From Takakia lepidozioides (taxonomy: Eukaryota > Plantae > Bryophyta): a stretch of 64,000 bases of DNA. The position numbers were made by a program, and so were the translations under genes. Where the stretch lies: positions 31,248,001 through 31,312,000 of the forward strand of contig CM060731.1 in NCBI GenBank assembly GCA_030704615.1. The letters are read 5' to 3'. Below, in pieces: positions 4,720 through 55,079 of the stretch (positions are counted from its first letter, which is position 1; every line of letters begins with the position of its first letter). The notes beneath the pieces are model-generated. The model made no database searches, was not told where the DNA came from, and worked only from the letters and a program-made list of their open reading frames with translations.

Positions 4720-4901
4720 TCTGCCAGAGAGTCATTCATACTTAGGATGATAAAAAGTAAACAGTACAATGCATTGGAAAAACCGACACCAGGGAAGTGA
4801 ACAAGAACGTTCACTGGACAGCCGAGATTCACCAAACTCAATTAAAATATTTTATGTCCCAATGCAGCGGCACGCAACTCGTGATTGCTAAGGAACTTCT
4901 A

Positions 4902-5579: not shown

Positions 5580-5699
5580 CTAAGGAAGGGAATGCAGATC
5601 GTTTGGATTGACAGAAATGGAATAGTCGACTGGAGGGTAATGCATGTTATCATGTGGAATAACAGAAGAGTTTATTATTAATTTCAATTTCAGTAATCC

Positions 5700-28189: not shown

Positions 28190-28564
28190 GCAGTGTGGTC
28201 AAATGTCCTTTGAATTGAATTGCTTTGGGGGGTGAAGGCTGGGAAAGGTCCATCGTGGGTGAACAAAGAGAAAAAACCCTTTGCCTGCGAGCTCGTTGTT
28301 GTGGACATTACAGACGGGCTTCCAGTCCCAGATCTTCCACCGAAAGGTGTCACTTCAGCCTGGAATGAATGGGACGAGCGCTACTGGCTCTAGGTCTTCA
28401 AGTTCTATGGGAACTTCTTGGCTGACAATGGGTGTTTGCTCATCCTACAAACTGCCAATGCAAAGTGCCGACGACTATTGTCCAGTTTCCTGAAGTCTGG
28501 TAGGATGAAGGTGATTAAAAGCTGGAATGGAGTTAATAGTCTCCCACTTACAAAGGGGGACTTC
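28190..28564 (+). pseudogene. Beta-class N4C/N6A DNA methyltransferase-like gene, 5' part
   Basis: ELVVVDITDG (degenerate motif IV position), WNE, FLADNGCLLI; reading frame rejoins 50990 once one TSD copy is removed. Confidence 0.6.
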
Positions 28565-29779
28565 CACTACAAAAGATGAGCGTTTTTAGGACTACGGATT
28601 TGGCGGAGTCATAAAAACGGCACTAGGTATACGACTATAGAGCGCTGAAATGCGTTGCAGTCATAGTTTTATCACTTTATAGTAATGGATATCACTACAT
28701 GACTCCGGAAAATTAGGGAGCATTGGTCAAACATTGTTGACCATGATGACAAGGATGGTTTTATGACTAGTGTGATATGTTTGACTAGACGTGGACGACG
28801 TTTCATGGAATCTTGTGACTCCATGACTGAAGATGGTTTTACAGCTCTATTTATACGACTACATCCCTACACGTGTCATTTTGAAAGCACATACATGAAT
28901 GTATTCATCCATTGGATGAGTTTATCCATCGATGACATGGCATGTAAACTTATGAGTCCTTTATTGCAAATTGTTTCATAACTATATATATATAACTACA
29001 TCACTACACATGTCATTTAAAAGGCATATACATTAATGAATTCATTCAATGGATGGGTTCATCCATCCGCCTATACGGTGTGTCGATTTGATATCTGCTC
29101 AATAAATTGGACCTGGATGGACGTGGCTTAACAAGGGTTGCAAGATATATGAGATTAAAATATGTGGTTGTACAAGGTTAGATCATGTGATGGAAATTAT
29201 TTTGAATCGTTAGATTTTACAGGATCTAACGGTCTAGATTGTTTAAGATCTAACGGTTTAAGATTACACCGCCGAACTTTACACCAGGCTGGGACTTAGG
29301 CTTTTTTGTCTCCTGCGTTTCACCATCTATTTGATGTTGTGTCATGGAACGCGATGATCGCAAGATATGCAGGGGCGTGGGATGGAGGCTTTGCAGACCT
29401 TCCTACTCTTGAGCAAATGATGCAGGAAGGAGAAGAGGAGGAGGAGAGGAGACGAGGAGAAGATCCCAACATTCTTGTGAGCTCGCCGTTTTTGGGAGAG
29501 AGACGAGACGAGGAGACGCTCGTCGTTCTTGGGAGAGTCAGCTTGGTCTTAGCAGGCCGTGTTTCAATCTCTGCCTGCTCAGCTGCACCGTGGTGGTTCG
29601 ATCTCACATACCAATCCAACATTACCTGACTACATATACAAGCATCACACACAAGGGGTCCTTTTGGGCTAATGGTCGGTCAAATCCTCTATGGGTTATG
29701 ATACAAGGTAAAGGACAATGTGGTGAGGATACCTTCTTCTTTGACCTATTTCAGCCTGTTTTGCTCTGTTTGGCAGCAT

Positions 29780-30410
29780 GAAAGTATCCAAAAACAGGTA
29801 ATAGAGATGAGGAGAAGCTTTGGAATGAACACTTTTCCGACCCCAGTCAATGGCGAGACAATGGAGACAAAAAGGTGAATGCATGTTGGACTACACTAGA
29901 GAGAAGTAGATGCAATTTAGAATTAGAACTACTGTAATAATTAGGGTTGGGGTTTGCTGGAAGAACTTCACGCCGTCAGTGTCAGCTGCTAGCAGCAAGT
30001 ATTCATGATTTGTACACAGACAGGGGTAGCTAAAGGACCAGGGATAGAGGTCCAGGTTCATCCAAGAGGGCCGGATTTCAAACACAAGATTAGTTCTGAT
30101 TCCCCGTGGATCAATAGCTACAAGAAATCTGCTAATGAGAAAATGGTCTGCTAATGAAAGCACGTTTTTCAACACATTTCACCCTGTTTTTCCCTCTTAT
30201 CAGAATCGGCCCTAAATTTCCTTGTTGAATTCTGCAAGTTAGTTGGTTTAGTGAACCTGGGATAGTTTGGAGTGACTTTGATATGATATTGCCAATGTGA
30301 CAACAGGAAAGTATCCAAAAGAGGTAACAGAGATGAGGAGAAGCTTTGGAATGAATACTTTTCTGACCCCAGTCAATGGTGGGACAACCAAGGCAAAAAT
30401 GTGAATACCT
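29780..30410 (+). pseudogene. Captured fragments with OSB-type PDF motif (organellar ssDNA-binding protein-like)
   Basis: EKLWNE(H/Y)FSDPSQW(W)DN twice and HPRGPDFKHKI; third copy near 32575-32680. Confidence 0.6.
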
Positions 30411-30414
30411 GTCA

Positions 30415-30860
30415 GATTACCAGATGTCATTTTGAACACTGCCCCTGCCTTGGTGGACATGTATGTCAAATGTGGGTGCATCGAGGATGCAAAGGGAGTG
30501 TTCAACACTATGGCTGAACGAGATGTGGTGTCATGGAGTGCGATGTTTGCAGGGTATGCACAACAGGGGCGTGGGATGGAGGCTTTGGAGACCTATGAGC
30601 AAATTATGAGGGAAGGGATACTGAAGCCCGACCACATAACATGTGTATGTGTTTGCAATGCGTGTGCAAGCCTGGCAGCCCTGGAAAAGGGCAGAAGGTC
30701 TATGGTTGCATCGTCAAAGCTGCAAATGTACCAGATGTCATTTTGAACACTCCCCTGGTAGACAATATGTATGCCAAATGTAGGTGTAGCAAGGATGCAA
30801 AGGGAGTGTTCAACAACATGGCTGAACAAGATGTGGTGTCTTGGAGTACCATGATGACCA
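30415..30860 (+). pseudogene. PLS-class PPR gene fragments
   Basis: ALVDMYVKCGCIEDAKGVFNTMAERDVVSWSAMFAGYAQQG...KPDHIT..VCNACASLAALEKG; a second partial repeat follows; small piece at 29330-29430. Confidence 0.9.
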
Positions 30861-32469
30861 CCTTCCCCGGTGACTCTCTCTCTCTCCCTCTCTCCAACTA
30901 CTTGTTTGGGATTATCAATTTTTTTCCATAATACTTATTTTGGAAATACTATATATTTTTAATCCCAATTTTTAAGGTTTCATCCATACTGAATGAAATT
31001 TCTGTTATAACCATAACAGGATGATTTATAGGCAGATATGCATTTCAATGCATTTTAGGTTTATGCGCCTTTGATTTAAACCTATTGAATGCCCATTTTT
31101 CATCCTGGTCTGATACCATCCATACCGGATGGTGGATGAAATCGCGGGTGGTTTTCCTTTAAGTGTCTCTCTGCCCTAGACACAGCACGATATCGTGCGT
31201 GTTTTTTTTCTCTGGAAGAGGGCGATGGCGGACGAATGCTCGATGGCGGCTGAATGCCCGAGCAGCAAGATCCGAACGGGTGTGTTCTTGTTTTTTGAAC
31301 GCGCGATGACGACAAACACTTTCATCTCCCGCGATGGCAAATGACATACTGTTATGTTTGCCTACGTTTTTTCCTCATTGATGAAGCAGCGGCGGTTATG
31401 GAGGTGGGGAAGCGGCCTGTATTACAAGATACAACCTGTCCTCAACTCTCCACCCGTTGCATTCTGTTGTGCTTGTTCAAATTCAGATGATGAACACTGC
31501 AGCGTCCTACTCCACAAAAGATTGAGGTTCTTTGTGATGTCACATCTATGCTTTCTTCTGCTGGTTCTGTGATCTTTGCATGCTTTATGGCTCATACCTG
31601 ACATGGATAGCAACTGTGAAATCCTGTAATTCACCTCGCGCATCCTCACTAACGCACAAAATATTTTTTGTGTTTGTTTTTGGGACGGGCGCAGGTGAGG
31701 GATTTCACTTGGCATGAACTCTTTGGCTTGCAGATGATCTGGTTACTGCAGGAGGGATAAGATATGCTGCAAGCTGCCGTTGTTGCAATTTTCTGCTTCA
31801 AAGCTGCTTCAAGGGGGATATGCCTTAAACCTTTACGTTGATTTCTGGTTCTTGGTAACCAAATCTGTTAAGTCAGGGAAGTAAATGGGCTGGGCCTCCT
31901 AGAAATCAGACCTTATTGTGAAGGTTCGGGCTGGTTGTGATGACAAGGGTTTGGTGATGCAAGTGTGACATTGGATGCATTTTTCCAGACCTGTTTTCTA
32001 GCCTTTTGGAGAGTCAGACAGTGTTGTTTATGCCTCACCAGTTTAGAATGTATTAAGTAAGGCATTGGGTAAGCCTTTTTAAGAACACATACATTCTTTC
32101 AGGCTCCCCCATGATTATAACCTGATTACAGACTGGTATTTTTGAGGATCTCTCTAAAACTTGGCAGAGTGACTGGATAAGGCCCTGGGATACATACCAT
32201 AGCCCTGCATCTACTTATGGAAGTACAATCAGTTCAGCTTGTGCTTTTAGGAACATACAAGTCCTTTAAAGCTGTAATAGGGAATTGTTTTCATCAAAGC
32301 TCTCACTCTTAGGCATGCTGGAATGGTTTTCTCAAAGACCTGTTGAGCTTACAACATACTTGTTTAAGCTATTTGAACCCAAGAATTACCAAGCCAGTAT
32401 TTTTAAAGGGCTTTTTTGATTACGAACTGTATTCTTAAGCTCCCCCTAGAGATTGGGAATGTGACATGG

Positions 32470-32472
<3 letters not shown>

Positions 32473-32513
<41 letters not shown>
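32473..32513. repeat. (CT)n microsatellite
   Basis: Direct. Confidence 0.95.
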
Positions 32514-32517
<4 letters not shown>

Positions 32518-34199
32518 CTCTGATACATGATACATATATACATGATTTGTGCAGAGGCATGGATAGCTGAAGGAGCAGGGATAGAGTGCATGGGTCCAGA
32601 TTCATCCAAGAGGGCCGGATTTCAATCTCCAGATTACATATGATTCCCTGTGGAAGGATAGCTACAAGAAACCTGCATGGATAGATGATCAATTGATTGG
32701 TCTTGAGCTGAAGAGCACGACCCCTGCAGGGATGTCTCTCCATCTGTAGATCTTTTAGAAAGTGGAAGGCTAGGCCTAGGGCCCAGCTTTCTTATGACAT
32801 TGTTAGCTGATTTTCAGTTCTTCTCCTTAGCTCGGTGCCTTTCTATTTCCAAGTTATGGCAGTAGTTTCTGGCTGCATCTGTTCGCCTTTGAGGGGGATG
32901 GAGAGCTGTACAAAGAGGTAATTGCTCCTCTCCATGAGGGTTCCACCTCAGGTACCCAGACAGATGCCGCTGCCGCCGCAGTGCCGTTGGAACACGAGGA
33001 CATCGAAATTGACGACGATTTTGATTGTGAGTAAGTCATGTGCTATTTCTTCTTTGCATGGGACTCTGTTATGGCGTCGGAATTGGGGATTCTCATGAAA
33101 GTTTGCAATGTTTTGCAGGAGCCCAACTACGCCTAGGTTCCTCCCTTTCTTTGCGAACCCGGACTTCTTTCCAAGTCCGCCACCCATGCTTGAATTGCTA
33201 TGTTATGCTGAGGCTGCAGCAAAAACATTTGCTCTCCAAACATCTCCCCCTAGACAGGTTTGTGGCATGAATGGACGTGTTCATAGTGGGACTATGGTGT
33301 TCATTGATAGTTGTGCTTCAGTTTCCAATGAAAGCTCCTCTACTAGTGGATCTGGACAATGGAAATGACCCATAAATTTTCGGACTTTCTATGGATAATG
33401 AAGCAATATCGACTTCTATGGTTTCAATAATGCCTGTGCCCGTTCATCCATCGTATAGACGTCAACAATAGAGAATCTCAGCATCCACATTCTTTTCAAA
33501 CATTCATCCAATGATATGAGCATGCATTAATCCATCAATGTGCCGGATTGCTTCCCTGAACATCCAAAATTCATCCAACATTCATTCATCAAACTCACAC
33601 CATCCACCAAATTTCATCCAGCTTCCTTCATTTATCATCCATCGACTTTCATCCATTATTCATCCAACATCCACCCTCCATTCATCCGCATCCATCCGCA
33701 TTCTGCCATTGTCTCTTCTACATTGTTGCAAACTACTGCCGCGTTGTGTGCAGACTTTCCCGCGGATACAAGTCCCGCATGGTTTCAGAGAAGTAGAATA
33801 GAAATGGAATTACTGTTTGGTCTAGAACATGTAATGTGAAGATGGAGTCTAATTATATAACCTCCACTGTACAGTGAAGGTTGGATGAGATACAGATGAA
33901 AAAAGTTGGACGGATGAATACTAGTGGATGAATATGGTTACGTGGATGAATAATTGTAATGATGGATGAATGTGAGCATTGACGCGACTGTCCAGTGGAG
34001 GTCCACGACTTGAGGGATGACAAAATACTGAAATTGGAGAGATGCACAAATACAGCGAAATGAGAGTATTGGACTGTAATTTCTAAACGTGCAGATGAGA
34101 AATAAGTAGATTTTTCTGTAGACTATCGAAAACACACAGATGTCATAACATTTTCTACGGAGAAACTTGATTCCATCATGTCCAAGAAGCTTTCGTTGA

Positions 34200-37100
34200 C
34201 TGTCTTGTGTTGGTAGCCCGTGGCAACACCTCTGCCAGGGTTAGGTAGGGCCTCATATGGTTTGTCCGACAGAGCTAGTTGTGAACCCCTCTAAGCCCCT
34301 CCTGCCACAGCAGCCACTGCCTGACCTTATTCGCCCTCTTTCTTTTTGTCCTTCTTCTTTCCACCCTTCTTTTTCGGGCTCTAATTTACAACTGGTTCCT
34401 TTGCTTTGAGAAGCCGGAGATCTCTCAACTGCAGCTGCCTATTTGTCAAAGGAGCAAGAGTCTCTGCATTGTCATTCAAATTTCGCAGGACGTTCTCCTC
34501 CCAGGGTGTCGATTGTTTCGGGCAATCAAGGTACCACCCACAATCTTTGAAATGAGACCTGCTTCAGTCCTCCAAAATGCCCGCTGTGTACATTGTTGTG
34601 TCGGGATTTGTCTTTGCCCAGCTGTCAATGAAGAATGGGTACGAGCTTAGAAAACCACCTGGAAAAAGCACTCTGTGGATATATCTGCGAAAACAAAAAC
34701 AACAAAAATCAGGAGAGTTCATAGGAAGACATGATAGCAGGCTCCATCCTTTTGTTGTAACACTCAACAAAAAACAATCCAAGTGCAGGGTAAACTCATA
34801 CTTGCGTCAATGAAAGCCTCTTTCCGGTTCTGAAACAGGAGTTTGACACTTAAGAAATCCTTTCATAACGGAAGGCGTGGGCTGCCATCAAATAGGCTTG
34901 CGTCAACGCAAGCCTCATGCAAACCCGGTAAAAGTCCCGTTGCCTCACAGTTTTGGGTTGAAGGAAACAATGCATAGCTATACTTAAAATTCTCACAACA
35001 TACCCCTGCCGAATACTTGGTTCAAACTACCAATATATATTCCACACACTAGACAGGCTTGCGTCAACGCAAGCCTGACCCTAGCCCAAAAACACTCGGG
35101 AAAATGCAAGCCATGAGTAGCAAGGTCCGCAGGCTTGCGTTAACGCAAGCCTCAATAGAGAAAGCTTCTATCTTAAAGAACAACTCACAACATTAAAAAG
35201 CATGAAATGAAACTTATATATGACTTGTTTCATCGCCTGCTCCCCATTGTACTGGGCATCGAACAAATTCGAACGGTTAATCCCACCATCGACAGCAAAT
35301 TCGCAGAAGAATGCATGGTCCCAAACGATCCCTTTCCACCTCCTTATCCAGGTCTCGAATGACTCATTGGGTGTAGCAACAACTATCTTGAAGTCTGTTA
35401 GAGATTTCTCCATAACCTCCTTAGCCCTCTCCTCCAACTGGCACGCATATAACTTGGTTAGATTTTGCGAATGCACTCAAAGACATCCAAAACAAACATT
35501 GAAGACCTGTGTCATGAAATTCTTACCTGCGCCCAGAATGTGGTTTTATGAAACCAGATGTCCCATACTTGGTCACTGAAAGGGGTCACGACTCCAGTGG
35601 TGGCGTTCTTCTCGCCCATGGGAAAACTATTTGCTTGCCGTAGAACAGGCTCAGAGTTCCAAATTTGAAGCCACCGTATTTTCACTGCTGGCTCCACCAT
35701 TGCCATGGCAAACCTGTGCAGCTTCTCTTGTGTCATTTCAGGCTTTGTTGTCTTGCTCCAATGAATTTGAACCTCATCCAAAAACTGAGGGCCAAGACCG
35801 GGATCAGCAATGCACAGTTGCTTGGTGAACGCAGTCACCACCTTCCCGCAGAATTCGTTCATGTGGAAGGTCATTGCCGCCTCAATACCGTAGGCAGTGC
35901 GTTCACTTTCTGGAGTTTTCCCGTAATATTCCGCTTTTCCCCTCTCTCCCGCATCAGCAATTTCTTGCTATCCAACCCAAAGGCAACGTTGAAAAGGTCA
36001 GACTGCAAAATGTGCAATAGGTACCTGAATCTAAACTTCACAATGATTTAGGCTTGCGTTGACACAAGCCTAAACATGGGTACATATGAATGATAAAAAA
36101 GGCAGTTTGCACGATTTACCGTGTACATGTACTCCAGGAACGCATCCCTCGTGAGTGTGTACCATGTCTCTGCCCTTCTGGAGGTCTCGCACTTCTCGAA
36201 GGCTCGGGTGAAAGAATAGTCTTGAAGCTGGACAATGGCATCCGTCCTAGCTTTTGCATTCTGAATAATGTATGCACCAGGTTTGTGGTGACATGGGAAG
36301 ACTCTGTTTGCCTGCACCATCAAGCTGATAGTGAGAAATTTAATGGCAAATAATAGCATCTGAGGTTGCATCGGAATCTGATGGTTGAAGAGAACTTACT
36401 TGTTTATATCATGCATGGCTGTTAGTAGCTGTGTGTAGTTTCCCTTCGGATCCAAAACGCACGCCGCGACGGAGTAATGCCAATCTTTCTCCTCTCGATG
36501 CATAGATTCAATGTACGCCAGCCAAGCAAGCAAGTGGTGGTTCCCGTCCCAAACAAAGAACATCTTGTTACTATACACCTGCAACTCCGGATTCCTGGAC
36601 AAAGACTGCTCGAATTCCAAATTCACTTCCCTCCAGCACTCATCCCACTTTCCCTCGATGCCCTCGTCTACTAGTCTCTCGTTCCCATTGGAGTCTCCAA
36701 CAGAAATGTAAAAGACAGGGGTTCCAAAAACATACCCGTGCACAAAATCTCCTTGAAGCTTCCTGATATCCCCGGTCAGGGCAGGACGAATAGCAGACAT
36801 TGATATCATCCTGCAGAGGGGTACTATGAGGTTCGCCTCCATAACCATCATGGATCGGATTACCTGTCCAGAATTCACTTTCGAGCCTGACCTTATCTTG
36901 ATGGCCATGCCTTTGTAATCCATATCTGTGTCTTGCACTTCTGTCTGGACTGCTGTCACTGCAACAGGGCCTTTGCCCTTTCTCCTCTTCTTCTACTCAT
37001 CAGCAACAAGAAATACATTATCAGATCAAAAGCGGGATTTTGTGAGATCAGCCTTGCGTTAACGCAAGCATGACATGGAGGTCTTCAAAGGACCGTTTGA

Positions 37101-38010
37101 CAACCCGAAACAGGCTGAGATCCACATCTTTTCGTTGACGCAAGCATGGATGGGACATTGGACCTTTAATCTGAAACACTTCAAGTTTGCATAGTGTAGT
37201 TCAGTAGAGAAGCATGGTACACGGAACAAGCATCAGCGCAGGCTTGTGTTGACGCAAGCCTGATTTGGTAATGCCCAGAACAAGCGGCTTATATCGATTT
37301 GAGTCTCTCAATCTAAACATAGTTTTAGAGATAGCGAGGTTAGCAGGCACACAGACCAGGCTTGCGTTGACGCAAGCCTGAAGTTTATTCCATACAAACA
37401 TAAGCAGGAGGCAGAATCTGTGTGAGTCTATTTGTGAGCCCTGCTGTGTGTCTAAGAAAAGGATAACATCCTTTGTGAGAGAATCTTTAGGGTTTCGTTG
37501 ACACAACCATGGACAGTGTGCTCTCACACAGAAGCAGGGAGCAAATATTTACCTCTGTCGGGTGCTCACCTTGGCCTGATGGTGCTGATCCATCCCTTTT
37601 GTTCCCCTTCTCCATCGCCATGACCTGCTCTCGTAGAGGCCACAAGCCAGCAGAGTAGTTAGACATGAAGAGAATACAATGCACAATGAACAAGTAACTG
37701 GACAATAGTTTAGGGTTTTCTCACCTCGACTTGTATTGCTTCTTCTTGGGCCTCTTGCAGGGAATGGAGTGGAGAAAAACTCAGATCGCCCGGTCCCAAC
37801 ATGGATTGCGTTCCTGCATCTTCCGTGTGCTCGTCGTCGGTTTGAGCCTCGGCATCGTGCCCTGCTCCCGTCTGTGTTCCCTTGTCTTCGCTCTGTTCCT
37901 CATTCTCATCTGCAGCAAGCGAAACAAACTCTCCCTCTTCCCGACCTTTTTCTCTACTAGATGCCGCAGCCATCTTTTCAAACACTCGTCCTAACCTCTT
38001 GCCTTTCATT
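34200..38010 (-). pseudogene. Multi-exon gene with ParB/Sulfiredoxin-like domain (ParB-like gene 1)
   Basis: Exon 36396-36959: IRPALTGDIRKL...PVFYIS...FFVWDGNHHLLAW (DGxHR box variant); acidic upstream exon; further exons 34200-36310. Confidence 0.65.
34800..37510. repeat. Dispersed 22-bp palindrome AGGCTTGCGT-NN-ACGCAAGCCT (7 good copies plus degenerate ones)
   Basis: 34894, 35055, 35131 (perfect), 36050, 37053, 37240, 37358; degenerate at 34801, 37131, 37490. Confidence 0.9.
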
Positions 38011-39067
38011 CTCTCATGTGCTTTCCTTCGCTCTCTCTCGGTAGTGAATACAAAGACTGCCTCCTTCTACGACGCTTGAACGCACTCCCATCTGTTCTAA
38101 ACCCCTCCAGCTTGCTAGGCACTCCGCACGATCACTCTCTCTGAAAGGACGGTGCTTTGCAGAGGGGTATTTCAAATGACGATTGGGGTTTGGGGATGAA
38201 TGGAAAAGGTCATGTCCGCGACTTTCGTTACATTGTCCACATAGGGCTTCTTCCTGATGTGTTTTGTGCACTTCTTCATCCACCCTGGATGTCGGCGTAT
38301 GCCATAACATGTGTCTAGCGGTGACAGGTTGGCTGTCGCTGAATTCGGCACAGGCAATGCATTGTATACCTTTTCCGATACGCCCTCAATGTAACGGTCA
38401 AACTCAACGGTGTGAACGCACAAAAATCAATGATGTCCATTTAACCCTTGGGTCTTGGCCAATCGCAGCTTGTATAGGCACTGACGTGTGGTGGCCATGA
38501 TCATTCTTTTGTTAGTATGAAGCGCCGGTCAGTGCCAGACATCCTCATCCTTTGGCAGTACATTCCTGGCATCATTGTAGCAGGTATTACGTCTTTGAGG
38601 ATTTGTACTAGCTGCTTTTGTACTCCTACGTTCTTCAGTGCACGTACTCCGTCTTGTGCACTACACTTTACCTGCACCCACCTGTGCAATGGATCCCACA
38701 GTGGACATAGCAAAGTTCTACTGTGCGTCCCATTCAAGGCCCATTTGCAAGGTCGCGGGTGGAGATGGTGTCGTTGTTGTGTAGGAGGACGTGCTCTGTA
38801 GAAGCTTGGAACTTGAAGTTGGAACTGTCCATGTTGAGAAAGAAGTGTACGATGATTCCGGTAAGGTTGACAACATGTTGATACTGGAGCCAGATATGGT
38901 TGGGAGTCGTAGAGAATGGAGAGTTCCGGCGGGCAACTACCGTGTTCACGGGGATCAAAGACGCCTGTCTGCAAGTTCCGTCTTGACGCCCGGAACAGCT
39001 GCTTCGGTGGCTCCAGCCTTCACACCTGCTCCCATAAAAAAAAAAACCCAGCATTTCCACTACATTC

Positions 39068-42000
39068 GTGGAGCTCTCCGAAAGCTCGGATGAGGACATT
39101 TTCGAGATCCCTACACCGCCAAACACGAGTGCTTATGTCGACGCAAATGTTCTGGAGATTACAAGTGTCATTCCCAAGCTGCAGTCTCTGAAAGGTTTGC
39201 CTAATTGCAGGAGTGATGTGCGTGGGATTGCTTGGGGGACAATTCGAATTGAAAGAGCAAAATGTCTACCTGCTGAATTTGATGGTGATGTCCTCTTCGA
39301 GTTGCCGCCTCCAACCTCATGTGGAGGTTTGGCTGGTTTGATGCAAGGTATGGACAAAAAACATGATGGACACCCTTGGTGCCGGACAAAAACTTCCAAC
39401 ATACACAATCCTCACGGGTTGAAGTTTCGGAGATCAGTTTGCGTTGGGCACCTGCGATGTACAAATGCAAATTGCAGTGGCCTGGGGCTGACTGGTTCCG
39501 CAAACGAAACCGAGTGGGAGGGTTGTGCGGACAATCCATTTGTGCCACTCCAAGTCACACTACGTTCATCTGCAGGTTCTGCAAATTCGTCCCCACATGC
39601 ATTGCCACATGCAAGGCTCGCATGTACTACATTCTTCATCGTTGCCAGACCCTTACTTGGGCTTGTGTACATCTCGAAAATCATGATCACCCCATGTGCA
39701 AAGGAGATTGCAGGGAAAGTATAGATACGGCACTGGGACTCCTGCAGCAAGAAGTTCACAACGCTTCGAATGCTACGCTGTCAGCCATTGCATTTGCGGC
39801 AAACAAGACGTTCTTGCAAAAATACATTCTTGGAGAACCAGACGATATCTTAGCCAAGCTGGACTCCTCAAAGCTAGATGTTGTTATGGACCATTTTTCC
39901 ACTTTAAGCTCGCCCGATGTCCGGAATCACATCAACGCACTGCGAATAGGCCCAGGGAACAGAGGTCCTCTTGATAGCATTCTGGACTTGAAGCGTAGAA
40001 GTAAATATGACTTTATTCAAGATAGTGTCTTTCCAGGCCAGGGATCCTTGAAAGTGTACTTATTCAAAATGTCCACGGTGGGGGAGGGTAGTGGAGTTAG
40101 CCTGGTCCGAAGAATGCAACCTAGAGGCGATCTGCAGAAATCATGGCTCATGTTCGACCATGTCAAATGTGTTAAAGAGTGGACAACCATGGCTTGTCAT
40201 GTGTATGATCCCACTTACCAAAGAGTAATGACTATAGCCATTTGCGACATGCAATCCGAGGACACACAATCTCAAATTCTGATGTGGAGGTCTCTTGTGA
40301 ACGTCATGAATTTGAATGGTGTGCTTGATCCAAACTTCAATGGATTCATGGCTGACAGCGCCCAGGCAAACTGGAATGCAGTACGGTGTGTGTTTGGATC
40401 TGGAGACCCCAAAACACCTATGGAAGGTAGGGAGCGCACTTGTCTCTTTCATTGGACGCAGTCCCTTCGAAGGCATACAAAGAGTTGCATAAAAGTGGAA
40501 TTGCAGGACGAGCACATGAGACTATGCTGCTTGTACAAAGATGCAAGGACGGACCATGAGGCAAACTCCCTGTATCAAACTATCCGAGCATGGTGGTACT
40601 CCTCGGATGCATCAAGCCAGGAAGGCCTCAAAGAGCTGGACGACTGGTTTGGGTTTTGGCATTTCCGATACAGACGGTGGGGGGGTTTCATGACAACAGT
40701 AAGTTCCAGGAGTTAGAGGGTTTTGTTTCTTCACTTTGATGCCTGCTCTTGTCCAATAAAACTGCACTCAAAACATGAAAACTCATTGCATAATCTGGTG
40801 GCTAGCAGGATATGTCGCTTGAGGATATTGCGGACATGCCCTCCTGCAATCTTTCGGAGACAGTGCATAGTGTTTGGATGAAGCAATCCGGGAAGAATGG
40901 GCGGGATCTGTACGTTGCCACAGCTGATGACATGATCCGCGCGCTCTTGCAACAAACACGGTACTGGGATTTCCTTCGGGGACAGGGTACAGGCAAGGGG
41001 CCAGATAGGGCAGAGTTGCTGCTCAGGGCTGCAAACAGATTGAAAGACCCTACTAAGATGGCACGGGCTGTGAACGAGTGCACAATGGGAACACCATTGC
41101 AGTCACGGCTTGCACATCTGGAAGGAGAGGAGAGGTTTGGTTCGTGCAAAAGAAAACTTGACACCCCACCAGGCTCGGATGCAGATTCACACCACAACGA
41201 TCGGGGAACTTTTCAGTACCACGTGTGCCTGTGCCCCCCACTTTCGTGGGTGCCACCCCTTTTGTGGGGGAGTCTTCTTTGCCTTCGTTCCCTCAGGAGT
41301 CTCCAACCACCACAGTCCCCGGTGAAGGGGAGAACACACTGCCGGTAGAGGAGTCAGACTGTACAGACGCAATGTGGCATATCGAACGGACTCCCCATGG
41401 ATCAAAAGTCAAATGTGCCGCTATTAGGGCCCCCTCGTTCTAAAAGTGCAAGTCCCAAATTTCCAAAGTGACTTGCGAAATTCCTGCCCCGACGTTCACC
41501 GGGTTGTTCAAGCATTACCAATCGCAGGAGTCTAGGCCTCACAAGTTTTGGTTCTGCCCGGATGACATTGTGCGCTGTGTCATGGGGACTGTTCGGGAAT
41601 CTGTGATAATGAAGCCTCAAATTCCAGCCGTGTGGCCAGTGAAGTTTGGAACGGCACTCTCCAAACTGGAGATTGACATGCTAGAGGAGGGCGGGTTTCG
41701 CCTTCCGAGAGCCCCTCCTGTTGTAACACCAGTTGACCCAATGGCTTTCCCTTCCAACTTTACGGCACGTCCTCGACATGGCAATGATAGGCCCACAAAA
41801 AGGGATGGAAAAGCAGTACGTTTGGTTGAGGCTAGTGCAGACAATGAGTGCAAGATGGAGTCTGCTAGAACCCTGCAGTGTTGCGTCACCCAAATTGTGA
41901 ATGTTCCTTTGCCAGGGTATGGGCGGGTGTACACCATGGCGGACCTCTGGATCAATTGTTCATGACCGGACCTATGAGATTACTATTGGCGATTTCAATT

Positions 42001-42210
42001 CCCTAATTGCACTTGTCCGGACTTTCAGAACACGCTTTCAAGTTCTCTTGGCAAGAGAGTGAAATTTGTCCCATGCAAGCATTTGTACTACATCTATATT
42101 CGGAGAATGTTTTGCGATCCAAAACGAGATACGTACATTCACCAATGTACGATTGGACCCAGCGACGTTCACACACTGCTACAGCGAGATACTTCGGGTA
42201 CAAATTGAGA
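39068..42210 (+). pseudogene. Mutator-like (MULE) DDE transposase with N-terminal GCM-like Zn domain and C-terminal SWIM finger
   Basis: DGHPW...CVGHLRCTNANC (GCM-like); WLMFDHVK...GFMADSAQANWNAV...CLFHW (MULE core); NLSETVH; CTCPDF...CKHLYYI at ~42007-42100. Confidence 0.75.
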
Positions 42211-43813
42211 TGTAGTCTGGATTTGCATTACAACTCTACCCGTTTGCCCTCCTTGTCATTGTTACTCAAATCTGGGTGTATCGGACTTTGGAGATGGGTA
42301 CGTTTGCTTCAAGGATGCATTTTTGAATGAGATCAATGTTGTTTTGCAATGAGGATTTCTTCTCAATGTTGATTTTCAATGCATGTTTGTGTTCCAACCA
42401 GGTCGACTTGTATCTAGCTTAGTGTTGGATAACGGGAACACTTTCTTGAATGAGATCAGTGATTGTTTTGCAGAATTGGCTTATGTATTCATTTTCTATG
42501 AGATGAATGAATGAGATGATACTCCATGACTGTTATGAAAATGATGAATGTCATGAATGTTTTTTTACAGACTACTATATTAAACTCATTCGTGCTACAT
42601 TCATCCACCCTTTGTCATCCAACATCCATCCTTCATTCATCCATTTCCCTGAACCCATTCATACTTGCTTACTTCATCGAGAAGTTCTTCGTACACATTC
42701 ATCCCACATTTTCTGGCATGGAGGTCGGCGCCTTCGGTCCCATCATGGCATGTAAACCTCCAATAGACATAAATTTGCGTCAACGACAATAGGCCCTGCT
42801 TCTTCCACGGTTATACGCTCCACTTCCACTTTCTGCTCACGCTTAACTTCTGCTCACATTTAAGGGAATCTGCTCACACTTAGTGCGCTAACCGTGAGCG
42901 CGCTCACGCTGCAGCTGCTCTCCACTGGAGGGAAGCGGAGCAGATAGCGGATTCAAGCGCAAACAGGAGACGGGAGGGAAGCAGAGCGGAGGGGAGAGCA
43001 AAGCGGTGAAAGCTTAAGGGTCAGGCGTTTTAGATCATCAACAGGGGCACCGATATGGCTCAGACATCCAGCAGGTAATCTTTTTGTTTATCGTTTATCT
43101 CATGTTCGATGTGATTCTCTCTGGCTTGCTCTGGCTTGTTTTGTTTTGCAGATTTGTTGTTGTTATGTTGTTTCAGTTTGTTCCTGTGCTTGTTGATTTG
43201 TTTGTTGATTTGTTTTTGTTTTGCTGCTGCTTTTGTTTTACTGCTTGTTGGTCGGCATCGCCCATGTCGCTGTAGGTTTGCTTCTGTTTTCTCACTCGCT
43301 TTCATTCCAGAGGTTATAGAACACCATTTGTTTCTAGCATGTCACGTTTCGTGAGTGTGTTGTCTTGTCTGATGCAGAGCATCTCATTTATATTCATTCA
43401 TTCCAAAGCTGTTTGAATTCATTGGTTCCAAAGCTGTTTCAATTAGTTTGAATTGATTAAAGTTGTTTAGGTGTTTCAATTCATTGTTGCTTCTCTTCTG
43501 GTGGTTTGTATGGTGGTATGTAAGGGTGGTTGGTATGGGTGGTTTGTGGTCTTGGTTTAATGGTGGTGCTGGATTATTAGGGTTATGGATAGGGTTATGG
43601 CGGGTTAGGATCATGGTTTGTGCGATTGGTTTTTCGAATTTCTGATATTCGGGCCTAGTAGACGCTACTCTAGTAGACTAGTCTCCGTAGACCTCTAGAC
43701 CTCTAGTAGACCTCCATAAACTCTGGCAGGACAAACCACACAAACCAAGGAAGAGAAAGATGAAAGTGCTTTCTGCAATCTTTAGTCTGATTCAAATGAT
43801 CACATTTCTGTAG

Positions 43814-44055
43814 GAGATATTGAACAGTCCCCTAGATCCGTCCTTCCGTCCTCTCCCGGATACAGTCCTGACTCTCCGCAGTATCCAGTATCTGTACTTG
43901 TAATTTCTCCAGAATATGTCGCCGCAGATTCTCCAGAATACGTCCCTACATATTCTCCTCAGTACGTCCCTAAAGATTCTCCAGAATACATCTCTGGAGA
44001 TTCTCCAACATATACCCCTAGAGAGTACTCCCCTGAAACCCTCAGGATGATTTGA
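43814..44055 (+). other. Putative exon encoding Pol II CTD-like Ser-Pro-Tyr repeats
   Basis: After ttctgtAG: SSPGYSPDSPQY...SPEYV..DSPEYVPTYSPQYVPKDSPEYISGDSPTYTPREYSPE. Confidence 0.5.
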
Positions 44056-44299
44056 GAGAGCCTTCTGTAGTTATTGTACATATAAGAAAATGAAGGGATG
44101 AACCTCAACTTACAAGAATATATCGAGTTTTTGTAGGTATTAGGTATTCGGTATTCGAACAATTTTGAGACCGGATGATGTATGGAATGGCGAGATGAGC
44201 CTTCTCTGAATAAATGTTTTTTTCTTCTAATGAGTGAAATCTTTTTTTCCTCCTGAATTGAATTGTTTTATCTGTCAGCTATGAGAGTGTGCAGTGGTG

Positions 44300-45042
44300 A
44301 ACCTCCACTGGACAGTGGAGGTTAATGTCCCAAGAGTTTTGTATGGTTGTTATGATATGTGTCTGACGACTGAGGTGGTTTGTTATGTCGACAGCAACAT
44401 CACCCCCAGGGATTGTATTGTTGGAATGTGCAAACCTATCTGTGGTTCATTTGTTTCTCGAAAATCTCCGAATTTCAAGAATGATCACCTGACAATTTTT
44501 GAGCTCAACCCGGAAATCACAGAATGGGACATTGTCCCCGTTGGAACACCTCCTAACCATAAGTTCCGGTTCCACTACAAGATTGGTGCAGAGGTCGCCG
44601 AGCTCAAATATGCAGATGTGGTCAACGTAGAGCTGGAGATGGAGGTGGAATTTCCGATGCTGGTCATTTTCATGATGGAAGATGGTAGATTTCCCAGAAC
44701 GTTTGGCTTCAAACTGGAGGTACGACTTCTAAGGAAGGCCATGATGAGAGAGTCCATTTGGGCGGGGTTCACATATTGCGACGAGGGTACTCAATTTACA
44801 GATGCAGGTTTTTGCGCGTCTTTACCAGCTCCGGGTGTTCGACTCCAAACATCCAGTTTATCTGATTCCCGCAAACCCCGAGAAGCCTATGGAGGTTTCT
44901 AGTTCGAAACCGCGAAACTGGAAGGAGGTGGAAAAGTCCAAATTCTTCGTTATCGGTGGACAACACACGATCAGTGCAGGTAAATTTCTCTACAAAATCC
45001 AATTTTTGTAACAACATAAACCTCCACTGGACAGTGGAGGTT
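44300..45042. repeat. Palindrome ACCTCCACTG-NN-CAGTGGAGGT (also at 3776, 33860 and a half copy at 33987)
   Basis: Direct. Confidence 0.85.
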
Positions 45043-47000
45043 CATGAACTTTAAACAACATGCTTGTTAGGTCGCTATCATTTCTGACCTTATTCAATTC
45101 TATCGCAGGAACTTGTGCAAGACATGGACGACGACAATCTTAAGAAGTACTACTCTGACTAGCCCTCAAAGATTATATGGTCAAAGGATCTGATGAGGCT
45201 CGTGAAGCTATCTAAGCTCCTAAACGACCCGAATAATGCGCAGAAATTTGACACAACATTCCCCGAAAAAGTTGCACATGCACGGAATTTCTTCAAGCTG
45301 AGGGGGAGGCCGAAAAAGTACAACGATCACACAACGAAGTCGGAGACTAGACAATGGAAGGTAAATGATTCATTGTGTTTTTTGTTCCTTTTGCTAGAAA
45401 ACCAAAATATTTTCAAGCTCGGATTTAATGTGACGAACGGAAAGTTCCATCATTCAAATATTCGACTTGCTGAAGTCTTATGTAATGTCTGTTGTTTCGT
45501 AATGAGGTGCTTCTCCACTTGGAACAATTTCGTAAATGTGCCGATAAAATACTTGAAAAACCATATGACCATGAAAACTTGATGCTTCGGATGACGCTTG
45601 CAAAAGATTTCATGGTCTTCTGGTATTTCACGGATCTTGTAGGCACATTTGTGGAACTGTTCTCAGTGGAGAACATGAACAGATTGGATAAATTTGACTT
45701 GGAGGAGCACCGCATTACGAAGCAGGAGACACTACAGAAAGATCTTCAAATTACAAGGCACGACAGGATGGACGGAAATGAATTGGCAATCGAATCATCC
45801 TTTGGAGTACAGTATAATTGACATGATAGTTGTAACTTTTGTTTCATCTCAAAAATCAAATATCAAATATCGAATGAAATGTCTAATTTTGGCCCTGATC
45901 ATTTTCGCAGGAATTTATGCAAGTATGTCAACTCATACTGGAGATGAGTAGTGTGAAGGAGGCCATGGTTCTAGTTCTCTGTGACGAAGACGTATGGAAC
46001 CTCTGGGAGGAAGTGTTTAAACAATGGGAACAAGGAAAGCTTATTGATATTTTCGGGATTCAGTGCAAGGGTGAATAGTTACCGCTGCATAAAACCACTA
46101 TCGCGAAACTGCAAGGACTTAATGGCAGGCAGTTGAAAAGAGTGGCGGAGAAAATCCTCAACAGGAACATTTGCATTCGGAGAATAAAATTCAAGGGCGC
46201 GGACAAATCCAAATGTAATGGAAGTCTTAGGGTGGCCTCGGAGGAGCAAACAAAACCCGGAACCGTACACCAAACTGGAGTGGCGTGATGTGAAAAAAAA
46301 AATACAACTTCAACAAAGCTGAACTCGTTTGGAACTTTTCGAGATCGGCTCGGGAACGACTACATTGTAAGCAAACAAAGATGAATATGGAGACGCAGCC
46401 AATGACTGATGTGTTCAAAAAGTATGTCTTGTCGTGCAAGCAGACATTTGAGGATAACCAGAATGCCTTGGCGATTCTACGTACGAGCTTCAGGTCCCAT
46501 TACACACAGCTGGGGGGAAACCAAAAATTTGTTGATGCCAGATCACGGTTGGGACTTGCACCGAAGAAACGGTTTGACGACACATCGATGGTGTTCGTCA
46601 ATACAGTTTGTGATGACGATTCGAGGCAAATGATTACTCCAATATCCTGGATGCTTTTGTGGCTAGGAAACTCATGTCCAGTGCTTTTGTGTTTTTCTCG
46701 ACACAATAATCATCATGAAATCTTGTGTCATACATCCGGAATGGTCCTGGATCAAAGTCATTTATTATCCGACAGGATTAATACATTTCCGGCGAGTTTG
46801 AATCACCTTACAAGAGCTGCACGAATATATTCTCCCAGACGATCCTTTGCCTCGACTACGTATTTCCGGCAACAGCTGAGGAGATGGTGAATCCGGACGA
46901 TCACATTCAAATTGTTTTGTTAACGCCAGACCCAATTAATCCCGTTATCCAAGGACCTGATGTAGACCCGACCTCGTAGGAGAATGAGTGCAGGAACTAC
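44390..47000 (+). pseudogene. Multi-exon gene with second ParB/Srx-like domain (ParB-like gene 2)
   Basis: PVYLIP...KFFVIGGQHTISA (44800-44978) followed by GT donor; further decayed exons. Confidence 0.55.
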
Positions 47001-50000: not shown

Positions 50001-50989
50001 ACAGTATTAAATAGCATATGTATATAATGAACAGGCTGGCCATAGTTTAATTCATCAATAACACAGAGTTGCTTCCCAAATGGCTCACACTCAACGCATA
50101 TGTTCAAGATCGCCGTCGGTTACCACTGATGGCGGAATTCTGTGCACCCGAGGAGATGGATACAGTTGGAGATTGATGTAAGATATGACCAAACACCTCA
50201 CTGGTAGCTATCTCTTTTCCTGCTAGACTCTTTAGTTCTATGCAGACCCCCTTCTTTGCTTGCCTTCCTTCTTACTACTCTTTCTTGTCTTGGTACGCGA
50301 AGCTGTGTCTTCCTCTTTCAGCCTCTATGGCACTCTATCCAGAGGTTATTTTTCCTCTTTGTATCCAAGGACATTTTATGTCCATTACCTATAAAGTTCT
50401 AGAGGCCACTGTCCCCCACTGTCCCTCTTTGTTAACAAAAATAAAAATAATAATAAAAAGACAACAATGGCTTCCATTCTATTTTCCTAGAAACCTAATG
50501 AGAATTTAAATCAATTAATAATCTAAATATTATAATTGTATGATTTAATTTATTAAATTAAAAATATTATTAAAAAACCTCTTTAGTCATGAAGTTATAT
50601 ACTCATGACTATATCATGGCAACGTGGCATTATATGATACGATATTCTTTCCCACGTGTGGGTCATATATGTTGTCCATGTAGACACGTGTCACATCCGG
50701 AGTGCTACATATGTCTCTCTGACGCCTCTCCAATGGAGTTATACTTTGTAGACATGTAGTCATATAGTTAGTCATATATAAATCATATAGTTGTGACTAC
50801 ATCCTCTCTACAGCATGACTCCAGGTGCCACGCACGCAGTCACGGCTATGACTTGCAAAACGCAGTCCTAAAGACTAGTCGCTATGACATGGCTTTTTTC
50901 ACTGCAGAGTGATATAGTCATGAACGCATATAGGACTGAAAAAATAGTCATATGTGCAGTCATAAAAACGCTCATCTGTTGTAGTGTTC

Positions 50990-51640
50990 CCAGGCCAGAA
51001 GGTATGTCGTATCCTCCATTTCATTAAATCTTGTAGAAATGTTCCCCGTGTTTGGATAGCTTTGTTTTCCTTCTGCGCTGTCAATCTTCTCCTGCATCCT
51101 TGCGTTGACGAAATCGTAGTGCAACGTTGTCATCTGCTACCTACCTTGATGTTGCCTTGGCGCTCACCTGACTGAGTCCGGTGTTTTCATTTTGTAGACA
51201 CGAGCTTTTGATGCACACTGTCTCGTAAGAGAACGCCACCCAACCACACCGTCATCCGTTAAGGAGTTCCAGGTCTTGAAAGGGGGAACACATGTTGACT
51301 TGTCCTACGATCCCGTGGATGATGATTTTATCTACAACTACGTGGACGCCTCACTTACTGTGCTGCGGAATTCCGGAGAGCCATGGAGAGGTGCACGGGA
51401 AAAGAGTCCTGCATTCATGCAGACAGTCATCGAGTCTTGCAGTGTTGAAGGGTCCCGTGTTGTTGACCTCACTCTTGGAACAGGTTCGGGCCTTCACACT
51501 CTAGCAATAATCTGCCTTCATTGTTGTAGTTTGGAAGTGCAGGTTCGTGCGCATATCTTGGCTCATTTGGTTTATTCGTCTGGCAGGGGCATCGTTCCAT
51601 GCATGCCTGCAAGGCTGCTGGAAAACTGTGTGGAGGCAGC
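50990..51640 (+). pseudogene. Beta-class N4C/N6A DNA methyltransferase-like gene, 3' part (SAM-binding motif I)
   Basis: PGQK|TRAF...PWRGAREKSPAFMQTVIESCSVEGSRVVDLTLGTG|ASFHAC parallels the N6_N4_Mtase KP..L...LI...S..G..VLDPF.GSG signature. Confidence 0.75.
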
Positions 51641-54691: not shown

Positions 54692-55048
54692 CACTACTAC
54701 AAATGGGGGGGGGGGGGGGGGGGGTAGCGACGCCAGCCGCGCCCCCACGCTGGGCGCGGTGCTGGGCCTGCGACGCCACCCTCGCGGCGGGGTGTCGCAA
54801 TCCCCCGTTGCGACGCTCAGCCGTCGCAAGGTGGGGGCCCCCAAGGGCACCAAGACATGCGACGGTGGTGTGACGCCGTGGGGGGGTTGCGACGGGTTTT
54901 CTTTTTTGCGACGCCAGGGGGTCGCAACGCCTTTTTTATTTTTTGTTTTAATTTTTGGGCGTTGCGACCCCCCGGCGTCGCAAAAGCGTCGCTGGGGGCG
55001 CGCCCCAACGCTGACGGGAGATCGCATCGGCGTTGCCATAAAGTTTTT

Positions 55049-55079
<31 letters not shown>

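What the first reader, a model, noticed from the sequence alone, without database searches (positions are those of the whole stretch)
34800..37510. ParB-like gene whose introns are studded with a 22-bp parS-like palindrome
Seen: at least 7 copies of AGGCTTGCGT-NN-ACGCAAGCCT, apparently all in non-coding or intronic parts of a gene encoding a DGNHH ParB/Srx box. Known: bacterial ParB CTPases load at palindromic parS sites clustered near their own gene. Inference: a eukaryotic mobile ParB/parS-like module that marks or condenses its own element. Alternatively the sites bind the adjacent GCM-MULE transposase.
Basis: partly seen in the sequence, partly recalled or inferred. Interest (0 to 1): 0.78.

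Follow-up and report, generated by a model that had tools for sequence, protein, structure and literature searches.

The report
Plant transposon with self-docking ParB gene
A broken plant jumping gene carries, beside its transposase, a helper gene predicted to join a bacterial DNA-clamp (ParB) fold to a methyltransferase-like fold, and the helper gene's introns hold ten copies of one palindrome that the helper protein likely binds to keep its own element active, a design recently proposed for algal transposons but not yet tested.

Summary
There are seven close and three degenerate copies of a 22-bp palindrome, 10 of 10 in predicted introns of a spliced, frameshifted gene. Its main exon folds like ParB/Srx. 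Full-length relatives from Riccia and Adiantum are ParB fold + helical region (KorB-like over the DNA-binding domain) + amino-methyltransferase-like domain. The gene lies head-to-head with a Mutator-type transposase; homologues of that transposase lie upstream on the opposite strand in 7 of 14 long related loci. No relative carries this palindrome, but 13 of 25 carry their own palindrome array just upstream, against 1 of 17 control tiles. Best reading: a transposon helper protein that likely docks on family-specific sites in its own gene and counters silencing, much as VANC does. Binding, CTP use and methylation are untested; this copy is dead, with His in place of the key Arg. The kind is in print for algae (PMC12477816; bioRxiv 2025.02.11.637652), and this scan noted it before in other plant genomes. 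New here: a Mutator-type land-plant host, intronic sites and a shared CG-N4-CG core.

The parts
34330..37913 (-). Gene A: 5' part of a spliced ParB-fold / helical / methyltransferase-like accessory gene, seven predicted exons (37913-37725, 37624-37553, 36992-36400, 36311-36120, 36002-35527, 35437-35214, 34684-about 34330); decayed (frameshifts in exons 4 and 5, stops in exon 7)
   Evidence: exon homology to P0003/P0004 and loci L006/L007
36400..36992 (-). Exon encoding the ParB/Srx-like domain (VRP-like Arg69, DGNHH Box II-like motif, Asn197)
34798..34819 (.). Palindrome P1, degenerate copy (intron 6)
34894..34915 (.). Palindrome P1, exact (intron 6)
35055..35076 (.). Palindrome P1, exact (intron 6)
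35131..35152 (.). Palindrome P1, exact (intron 6)
36050..36071 (.). Palindrome P1, one mismatch (intron 4)
37050..37071 (.). Palindrome P1, two mismatches (intron 2)
37126..37147 (.). Palindrome P1, degenerate copy (intron 2)
37240..37261 (.). Palindrome P1, one mismatch (intron 2)
37358..37379 (.). Palindrome P1, exact (intron 2)
37489..37510 (.). Palindrome P1, degenerate copy (intron 2)
39038..42208 (+). Decayed Mutator-type transposase gene, head-to-head with gene A: GCM-like Cys/His region, two Asp motifs, CxxH-like His, Glu after a helical insert, SWIM-like finger
   Evidence: motifs kept in L038, L056, L080; SWIM only at E 0.12; family features from PMC1702500 passages
28214..28564 (+). 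Methyltransferase-like exon of an A-type gene (motif IV region, reads VVDITDG), cut by a CACTA insertion
28565..50986 (.). CACTA element ends with 3-bp TTC target duplication; it splits the methyltransferase half and now encloses gene A, the transposase and gene B
50987..51623 (+). Continuation of the methyltransferase half (rest of the motif IV exon, motif X/I exon 51198-51483, start of the next exon)
   Evidence: homologous exons of L006/L007 give weak N6_N4_Mtase hits
51096..51117 (.). Degenerate P1 site in the intron before the motif X/I exon
32876..33368 (+). Last two exons of the A-type gene; joined to 51623 in other copies of the same species
   Evidence: (joint 51623 to 32875, depth 451.7 in X1)
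43055..46980 (+). Gene B: a second spliced, decayed gene with a weak ParB-like FFVIGGQHT motif; its predicted introns hold a different palindrome, P2 (44300-44323, 45019-45042)
   Evidence: (hhalign E 0.016, probability 2.8%: weak)

Best explanation
The palindromes are likely the docking sites of the accessory protein encoded by the very gene whose introns hold them: a predicted ParB-fold/helical/amino-methyltransferase-like fusion carried head-to-head with a Mutator-type transposase, which would bind them as a dimer and keep its own element from being silenced. Shown: the palindrome array and its position in predicted introns, the ParB/Srx-like predicted fold, the fusion architecture of relatives, the recurring transposase neighbour, and lineage-specific arrays at the same place in relatives. 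Inferred: (1) a dimer reads each half-site through the helical region that superimposes on KorB's DNA-binding domain, with the shared CG-N4-CG core as a constant contact and the outer arms giving family specificity; (2) the ParB pocket (Arg69, GNHR, Asn197) gates loading and spreading with a nucleotide, which need not be CTP; (3) spreading carries the methyltransferase-like domain along the element, where it writes or merely reads a mark that opposes 5mC silencing, as VANC does for VANDAL. Step 1 is the firmest; active methylation is the weakest (about 0.3), since motif IV lacks the canonical aromatic residue in nearly all members seen. New sites arise by tandem duplication and are then kept by selection while the spacers drift. 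The copy in this window is dead.
For: Array real and intronic, 10 of 10. AF2 model pLDDT 88.9; 9 of the top 10 Foldseek rows and the top 12 of 15 VIA rows are ParB/Srx-superfamily proteins, KorB Z 8.3, rmsd 2.3, 89 aligned (superfamily assignment of SerK, SbnI, SspE, BrxU and Osa partly recalled). A full-length relative aligns to KorB residues 52-252 (N-terminal plus DNA-binding domain) over model residues 110-464, Z 7.1, rmsd 6.9, 184 aligned, and to beta-class amino-methyltransferases; Pfam N6_N4_Mtase E 1e-5 to 8e-4 in 5 of 8 relatives scanned. Box II-like Arg in 59 of 75 and the Asn in 64 of 75 aligned relatives. Repeated palindromes within 2.6 kb upstream of the ParB exon in 13 of 25 non-redundant loci against 1 of 17 distal tiles, p 0.002; 35 of 44 sites in 14 long loci fall within -2.5 to +4.5 kb, none in the ParB exon. 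Each lineage has its own sequence; none of 80 loci carries P1. In the window the cores are 0.83 alike while the flanks are at 0.29; younger arrays still show tandem units, with flanks 0.38-0.70. No strand bias in C-to-T versus G-to-A changes, 34 vs 30, which fits a double-stranded DNA site. Sites lie in or next to the ParB gene, not at the transposase promoter, in the window, L051, L055 and L056. A degenerate P1 follows the displaced methyltransferase half. Precedents: VANC binds family-specific motifs in introns (PMC5735166); ParB-family VirB and KorB regulate transcription from load sites.
Against: No binding, nucleotide or methylation data. No single fold match is significant alone: Foldseek E 0.017 at best, and Z 7-8 is in the range the tool calls common; the full-length model is poor (pLDDT 55.4, methyltransferase part mostly under 50). 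Pfam and PHROGs do not recognise the ParB domain. This lineage has His for the Box II Arg, no other letter at that codon is among the 40 of 91 differences listed for sister copies, and motif IV reads DITD. 12 of 25 loci show no upstream array, including L038, L060 and L079, which have the transposase. Several loci hold two palindrome families, and some lack the CG-N4-CG core (L051, L078, second families of L070/L072/L076), so another binder must exist. Palindrome arrays also flank a hAT-like element in this window, so transposase-bound arrays occur here. The protein-palindrome correlation (Mantel rho 0.36, p 0.001) is expected from shared descent alone.
Confidence: 0.55

Rival explanations
1. 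The palindromes are likely internal binding sites of the neighbouring Mutator-type transposase (its GCM-like domain), used for synapsis or for activating the element; the ParB-methyltransferase gene only offers neutral intron space.
For: Transposase homologues lie upstream on the opposite strand in 7 of 14 long loci. Mutator transposases bind palindromic and repeated motifs (PMC5499845 passages) and can activate cognate copies (bioRxiv 10.64898/2026.08.24.746577, abstract only). L056 has the transposase most like the window's (43-69% over its main segments) and the same inner TGCGT-NN-ACGCA core. Two palindrome families per locus imply two binders.
Against: No P1 copy in the 1.1 kb between the genes or beyond the transposase, apart from partial cores at 39133 and 42775. 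In L051, L055 and L056 the sites lie 2.5-7 kb from the transposase start and mostly within about 2 kb of the ParB exon. Known Muta1 sites are terminal or subterminal. Arrays also accompany ParB genes in other transposon superfamilies (Plavaka).
Confidence: 0.2
2. The protein likely binds its palindromes only as an autoregulatory repressor or activator of its own gene and the divergent transposase promoter, like KorB at short range; the nucleotide pocket and the methyltransferase domain are vestigial scaffolds.
For: Sites cluster in the gene's own 5' introns (27 of 44 within 2.5 kb upstream of the ParB exon). Arg-to-His in this lineage, non-canonical motifs IV and I throughout. KorB mutants that cannot clamp still repress a proximal promoter (PMC11790492 passage).
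Against: Box II Arg and the Box III-like Asn are conserved across 75 diverse relatives, as are the Asp and Pro of motif IV and the Asp/Gly of motif I, which argues for retained ligand binding. Sites also lie kilobases downstream (intron 6; L057 +2.5 kb).
Confidence: 0.15
3. The palindromes are likely neutral remnants of minisatellites or micro-MITEs that piled up in introns, with no protein partner.
For: Young arrays are plain tandem repeats (L043, L047, L057). About half of the loci lack an array.
Against: In the window the cores are preserved while the flanks are random (0.83 vs 0.29). The same 9-2-9 format and position recur with unrelated sequences, 18 of 18 selected families with CG or its decay product at half-site positions -3/-2 (the AGCT-core families were left out of that count). 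16 of 20 core CG positions are kept while the central CG is lost in 10 of 10. No target duplications or shared flanks are seen.
Confidence: 0.1

Closest known systems
Sola1-1_Ec32 accessory protein of Ectocarpus (PMC12477816; passages; supplement rows)
   Same: DNA transposon with an accessory gene on the strand opposite to the transposase; about 1100-aa protein with a ParB-like domain plus an N4C/N6A methyltransferase domain; proposed to bind and modify its own element.
   Different: Brown alga and Sola-1 transposase there; land plant and Mutator-type transposase here. The main text has no occurrence of 'palindrom'; here family-specific intronic palindromes are mapped. Homology of the two proteins was not tested.
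PAG3 of Bostrychia Plavaka (EnSpm) elements (bioRxiv 10.1101/2025.02.11.637652; passages and section 8; supplements not seen)
   Same: ParB-like accessory gene with tandem arrays of inverted repeats next to it, proposed as its binding sites; the authors draw the VANDAL comparison.
   Different: There ParB is fused to a 2OG-oxygenase and the methylase is a separate gene (PAG2); red algae; arrays described as adjacent tandem arrays, whereas here they are intronic and outlive their tandem units.
VANDAL/VANC anti-silencing system of Arabidopsis (PMC5735166; passages)
   Same: Mutator-type element (recalled); accessory protein binds short family-specific motifs in introns and other non-coding parts; motifs multiply by tandem repeats and differ between families.
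   Different: The VANC21 motif is a 9-bp non-palindromic motif arrayed in one orientation; here 20-22-bp palindromes in both orientations and a ParB/methyltransferase-fold protein. No VANC homology was seen or sought; binding and demethylation are shown only for VANC.
Bacterial ParB-family CTP clamps that regulate transcription: KorB (PMC11790492 passages) and VirB (PMC10770331 abstract)
   Same: Predicted fold of the N-terminal domain and weakly of the DNA-binding domain; GxxR-type motif and late Asn; repeated load sites on a mobile element.
   Different: Motif GNHR/GNHH instead of GERRxR; large insertions; C-terminal methyltransferase-like domain; spliced eukaryotic gene; no ParA seen; nucleotide use untested.
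Phage/prophage ParB-N6N4-methyltransferase fusions (PMC12704722 passages and section 7)
   Same: Same two-domain order; the nearest named clusters by language-model features are phage ParB_N + N6_N4_Mtase proteins (score 0.82-0.83, a lead only); PHROG methyltransferase hits to E 9e-7.
   Different: Extra helical region of about 400 aa and a long acidic linker; motif IV is D-x-P-non-aromatic; no sequence relative of the ParB domain in viral contigs. 'plant' and 'transpos' do not occur in that survey's main text.

Membership tests
ParB/Srx (ParB-CTPase) fold superfamily | ParB/Srx fold | tested here: met
   Model pLDDT 88.9; top rows of two searches are Noc, PadC, Srx, ParB, KorB, SerK; individually weak, KorB Z 8.3.
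ParB/Srx (ParB-CTPase) fold superfamily | Box II GxxR motif | tested here: inconclusive
   Family: Arg in 59 of 75, His in 5. This copy has His; no change listed at that codon in sister copies, but only 40 of 91 differences were shown.
Canonical ParB/parS partition system | Central HTH-type DNA-binding domain | tested here: inconclusive
   A relative's model aligns to KorB 52-252 at Z 7.1, rmsd 6.9; no Pfam HTH hit.
Canonical ParB/parS partition system | CTP binding and hydrolysis, site-dependent clamp closure | not testable with these tools
   PMC12704722 finds nucleotide choice unpredictable from sequence or models.
Canonical ParB/parS partition system | parA partner gene nearby | tested here: not met
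   No ParA-family hit among 56 window ORFs or 37 ORFs of long loci; the neighbour is a transposase.
Canonical ParB/parS partition system | Clustered palindromic sites bound by the protein | tested here: inconclusive
   Clustered palindromes are present; binding is untested.
Beta-class N4C/N6A DNA methyltransferases | Motif order IV before X-I, beta-class fold | tested here: met
   Order seen in L006, L007 and Riccia proteins; Pfam PF01555 E 1e-5 to 8e-4 but below the curated cutoff; Foldseek rows M1.HpyAVI, CcrM, M.BceJIV at E 0.04-0.08 on a low-confidence part.
Beta-class N4C/N6A DNA methyltransferases | Catalytic (D/N/S)PP(Y/F) motif (motif recalled) | tested here: not met
   Seen: DLPT, DMPT, DMPS, DIPT, DYPE, DIPE, DVPR, DIPW, DVPF; window DITD. 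None is canonical.
Mutator/MULE transposases | N-terminal WRKY-GCM1-type finger, D-D-E with helical insert and conserved His, C-terminal SWIM (PMC1702500) | tested here: inconclusive
   All motifs are visible and kept in related loci, but no Pfam MULE or GCM hit and SWIM only at E 0.12; no PDB sequence hit.
Mutator/MULE transposases | Element ends with 8-11 bp target duplication (recalled) | tested here: inconclusive
   No terminal inverted repeat found by self-comparison; the copy is rearranged.
Transposon ParB-methyltransferase accessory genes (Sola1-1_Ec32 type) | ParB-like plus amino-methyltransferase fusion on the strand opposite a transposase | tested here: met
   Fusion in L006, L007 and Riccia proteins; opposite-strand transposase in the window and 7 of 14 long loci.
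Transposon ParB-methyltransferase accessory genes (Sola1-1_Ec32 type) | Sequence homology to the algal proteins | not tested
   The algal sequences were not fetched.
VANDAL/VANC | VANC-family protein | not tested
   No VANC sequence was compared; the predicted folds point to ParB and methyltransferase instead.

The most novel reading that the evidence does not exclude
Bryophyte and fern transposons run a true eukaryotic ParB switch: a nucleotide-gated sliding clamp that loads on family-specific intronic palindromes, spreads over its own element and carries a bacterial-type amino-methyltransferase that writes a private 4mC or 6mA licence mark, with protein and palindrome diversifying together around a fixed CG-N4-CG core, and with several such protein-palindrome pairs (gene A/P1, gene B/P2) in one genome.
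Probability: 0.22. Interest if true: 0.87.

Novelty: new variant of a known kind. Interest (0 to 1): 0.58.

Why it matters
CTP-gated ParB clamps are known from bacteria, plasmids and phages; the 2025 survey of the fold that I read has no plant or transposon entry in its main text. Self-modifying transposons are proven only for VANDAL, according to the Bostrychia preprint. This family supplies many natural protein-palindrome pairs with a simple 9-2-9 site, so the published but untested idea that ParB accessory proteins bind and mark their own element becomes directly testable, in transformable bryophytes and in vitro. If active, it would be a source of site-directed 4mC/6mA or anti-silencing in land plants, and a set of orthogonal DNA-loading proteins.

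Tried and rejected
No assembly is held, so no genome-wide motif count. Word-indexed searches for longer relatives found none with the exon or with alignment A2; the HMMER search did (505 hits). Pfam, PHROGs and PDB sequence searches miss the ParB domain. P1 is absent from viral contigs and has 2 isolated single matches in 596 Gb of prokaryote genomes, about chance and no array: not a bacterial REP or parS. No relative of the ParB exon in viral contigs (27 candidates, 0 confirmed); the prokaryote genome collection was not searched with the protein. RNA-hairpin role: the sites fold, as any palindrome does, but show no G-U strand bias, so rejected as the main role. Identity with Marchantia DN4MT1: that enzyme has TSPPY and no ParB mention; rejected. 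Sola as the transposase here: motifs fit the Mutator description instead, though Sola was not compared directly. Tree of 79 ParB domains (quick tree only): the window's protein is a long unresolved branch and does not group with L056/L077, which share its inner core; no support either way. Element ends not found. Expression: no RNA holder listed, no evidence either way. Gene B's likeness to a methyltransferase was not supported by profile comparison. Literature searches for a land-plant report of this module found none; Iyer et al. 2011, cited for green algal versions, was not read, and the Bostrychia supplements were not seen; either may bear on novelty.
Full report
Setting. The window is repeat-rich land-plant DNA: PPR fragments, gypsy reverse transcriptases, a DUF659 (hAT-type, recalled) and a DUF4218 (CACTA-type, recalled) ORF. 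No assembly is held. Earlier notes on this genome call it a likely moss; I did not test that.

The observation. The pattern has 7 matches with up to 3 mismatches, all in 34894-37379, and none in 100 shuffles. The repeat finder gives a 10-member family at 34797-37511. I built a seven-exon minus-strand gene model from GT-AG signals and homology; 10 of 10 sites fall in introns 2, 4 and 6, p about 1.5e-4. The two middle bases are CA (5), TG (3) or TA (2), so the ancestor was probably a perfect palindrome with a central CG. Of the 20 flanking core CG positions 16 are intact. Cores are 0.83 alike, flanks 0.29. The gene is dead: frameshifts in exons 4 and 5 and stops in exon 7. Contigs of the same species at 80-99% likeness cover all 30 bins of the region, which shows many diverged copies; the depths are not copy numbers.

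The protein. The main exon (P0001) has no Pfam hit but 505 relatives in the representative library. Of 10 relatives looked up, 8 are named, from Riccia sorocarpa and two Adiantum species, and 2 come from metagenomes. The model from 75 sequences has pLDDT 88.9. Foldseek gives nothing at E 0.001, but 9 of its top 10 rows are Noc, PadC or sulfiredoxin matches with probability 0.77-0.99. The exhaustive aligner ranks KorB first (Z 8.3, rmsd 2.3, 89 aligned), then PadC, SerK, Srx and ParB-N. Across 75 sequences Arg69 (60), G-N-H (65, 75, 70), the following Arg (59; His in 5) and Asn197 (64) are conserved. The KorB alignment ends at 198/147, which would place Asn197 on KorB Asn146, needed for hydrolysis and clamp closure (PMC11790492 passages); that mapping is inferred from ranges only. 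This lineage has His in place of the Arg; no change at that codon is among the 40 of 91 differences listed for sister copies. Full-length relatives of 1100-1250 aa end in an amino-methyltransferase-like domain: PF01555 at E 1e-5 to 8e-4 in 5 of 8 scanned, all below the curated cutoff. The model of P0184 is mixed (pLDDT 55.4; good over about 92-445, poor over the methyltransferase part). It aligns with KorB 52-252 over 110-464 (Z 7.1, rmsd 6.9) and with ParB and beta-class methyltransferases at E 0.02-0.08. Motif IV is never canonical: D-x-P followed by T, S, E, R, W or once F, and DITD in the window. The nearest named Atlas clusters for P0154 are phage ParB_N + N6_N4_Mtase proteins at 0.82-0.83, a lead only.

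The element. A decayed transposase gene runs on the plus strand from 39038 to 42208, head-to-head with gene A. Its motifs are kept in related loci and fit the description of Mutator transposases in PMC1702500 (passages), but Pfam does not confirm this. Of 14 non-redundant long loci, 6 have the 5' end of a homologous transposase upstream on the opposite strand (L038, L051, L055, L056, L060, L080), 1 has its 3' part (L061), and 7 have none. The methyltransferase half of an A-type gene is in the window in pieces on the plus strand: 28214-28564, then a CACTA insertion (28565-50986, TTC duplication), 50987-51623, and 32876-33368. Sister copies join 51623 to 32875. Whether these pieces came from this very copy is not settled. 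A degenerate P1 sits in the intron at 51096. Element ends were not found.

Palindromes in relatives. The tool kept the best 80 of 179 confirmed loci; they form 64 clusters. None carries P1 or P2 within 4 mismatches. Many carry their own repeated 9-2-9 palindrome, up to 14 copies, while shuffled loci give at most 2. Among 25 clusters with at least 900 bp upstream, 13 have a repeated palindrome within 2.6 kb, against 1 of 17 distal tiles (p 0.002); 39 clusters were too short to test. In 14 long loci 35 of 44 sites lie between -2.5 and +4.5 kb, none in the ParB exon; 7 of the 14 have no family of three or more. Young arrays are tandem repeats (flanks 0.38-0.70). In 18 of 18 families that I selected, the half-site has CG or a decay product at -3/-2; I left out the AGCT-core families of L051 and L078 and the second families of L070, L072, L076 and L077, most of which lack this core, so the count is post hoc. 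Decay is strand-symmetric, 34 TG against 30 CA. Protein and palindrome distances correlate (rho 0.36), as kinship alone would give; the quick tree does not place the window's protein. P1 has 0 matches in viral contigs and 2 lone matches in prokaryote genomes.

Mechanism. I commit to the accessory protein as the binder (0.55). The sites stay with the accessory gene, differ by lineage, keep a common format, outlast their tandem units and behave as double-stranded DNA sites; the protein has a ParB-type architecture suited to palindromes. Loading, spreading and anti-silencing are inferred from VANC (PMC5735166 passages), KorB and VirB (abstract). Methyl transfer is doubtful. The transposase as binder (0.2) gains from L056, from double arrays, from the hAT-side arrays in this window and from reports on Muta1 (passages) and AtMu1 (abstract). 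Plain autoregulation (0.15) and neutral repeats (0.1) remain.

What is known. An earlier scan note led me to PMC12477816, which describes an Ectocarpus Sola-1 element with a ParB + N4C/N6A methyltransferase gene opposite the transposase and proposes self-binding and self-marking (passages). The Bostrychia preprint reports inverted-repeat arrays beside ParB-like PAG3 genes (section 8). Phage ParB-methyltransferase fusions are in PMC12704722 (section 7) and PMC4738411 (passages). Five earlier scan notes report the same kind in other plant genomes; they are unchecked and are not counted as support. My searches found no land-plant or Mutator report, but the library lacks most subscription papers, and Iyer et al. 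2011 was seen only as a reference entry.

Verdict. A real feature: a new land-plant, Mutator-type variant of a recently proposed and untested class of ParB-bearing transposon helper genes, seen here in a dead, rearranged copy. Interest 0.58.

Noticed in passing
window 43055-46980 (+): Gene B: a second decayed spliced gene with Y-S-P-type repeats at the start (as in L007), a weak ParB-like FFVIGGQHT motif and its own palindrome P2 (AACCTCCACTG-NN-CAGTGGAGGTT) in two predicted introns; possibly a second protein-palindrome pair.
   Followed up: partly
window 951-5862, 33859-34006, 47248: Further P2-like sites, several between three NIF/HAD-phosphatase-like ORFs at 1329-5579, which may be cargo of a P2-bearing element.
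   Followed up: no
window 28565-50986: A 22.4-kb interval between CACTA ends with a TTC duplication, inserted in a methyltransferase exon and holding nested elements.
   Followed up: partly
window 32876-50210: Sister copies join 32875 to 50211 and 51623 to 32875, so this 17.3-kb block seems to have swapped places with 50211-51623 (rearrangement or assembly artefact).
   Followed up: partly
window 22100-22400 and 54700-55900: A third palindrome family (TGCGACGCC-NN-GGCGTCGCA), 8 and 5 copies per tile, the first array just before a DUF659 transposase ORF: likely subterminal repeats.
   Followed up: no
window 33500-33980 and 42500-42700; L056 downstream of its transposase: Runs of TTCATCCA-like repeats in both orientations after gene 3' ends, also seen in L056; could be end or terminator motifs.
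   Followed up: no
L051, L070, L072, L077, L078 upstream of the ParB exon: A second palindrome class with an AGCT-NN-AGCT core, or two families interleaved in the same stretch, implying a second binder.
   Followed up: partly
window 45478-45739, 47754-48064, 48411-48900: Long imperfect inverted repeats, one inside gene B coding sequence.
   Followed up: no
L064 4060-4440: ORF matching bacterial solute-binding proteins (E 4e-8) in the flank of a plant-like locus.
   Followed up: no
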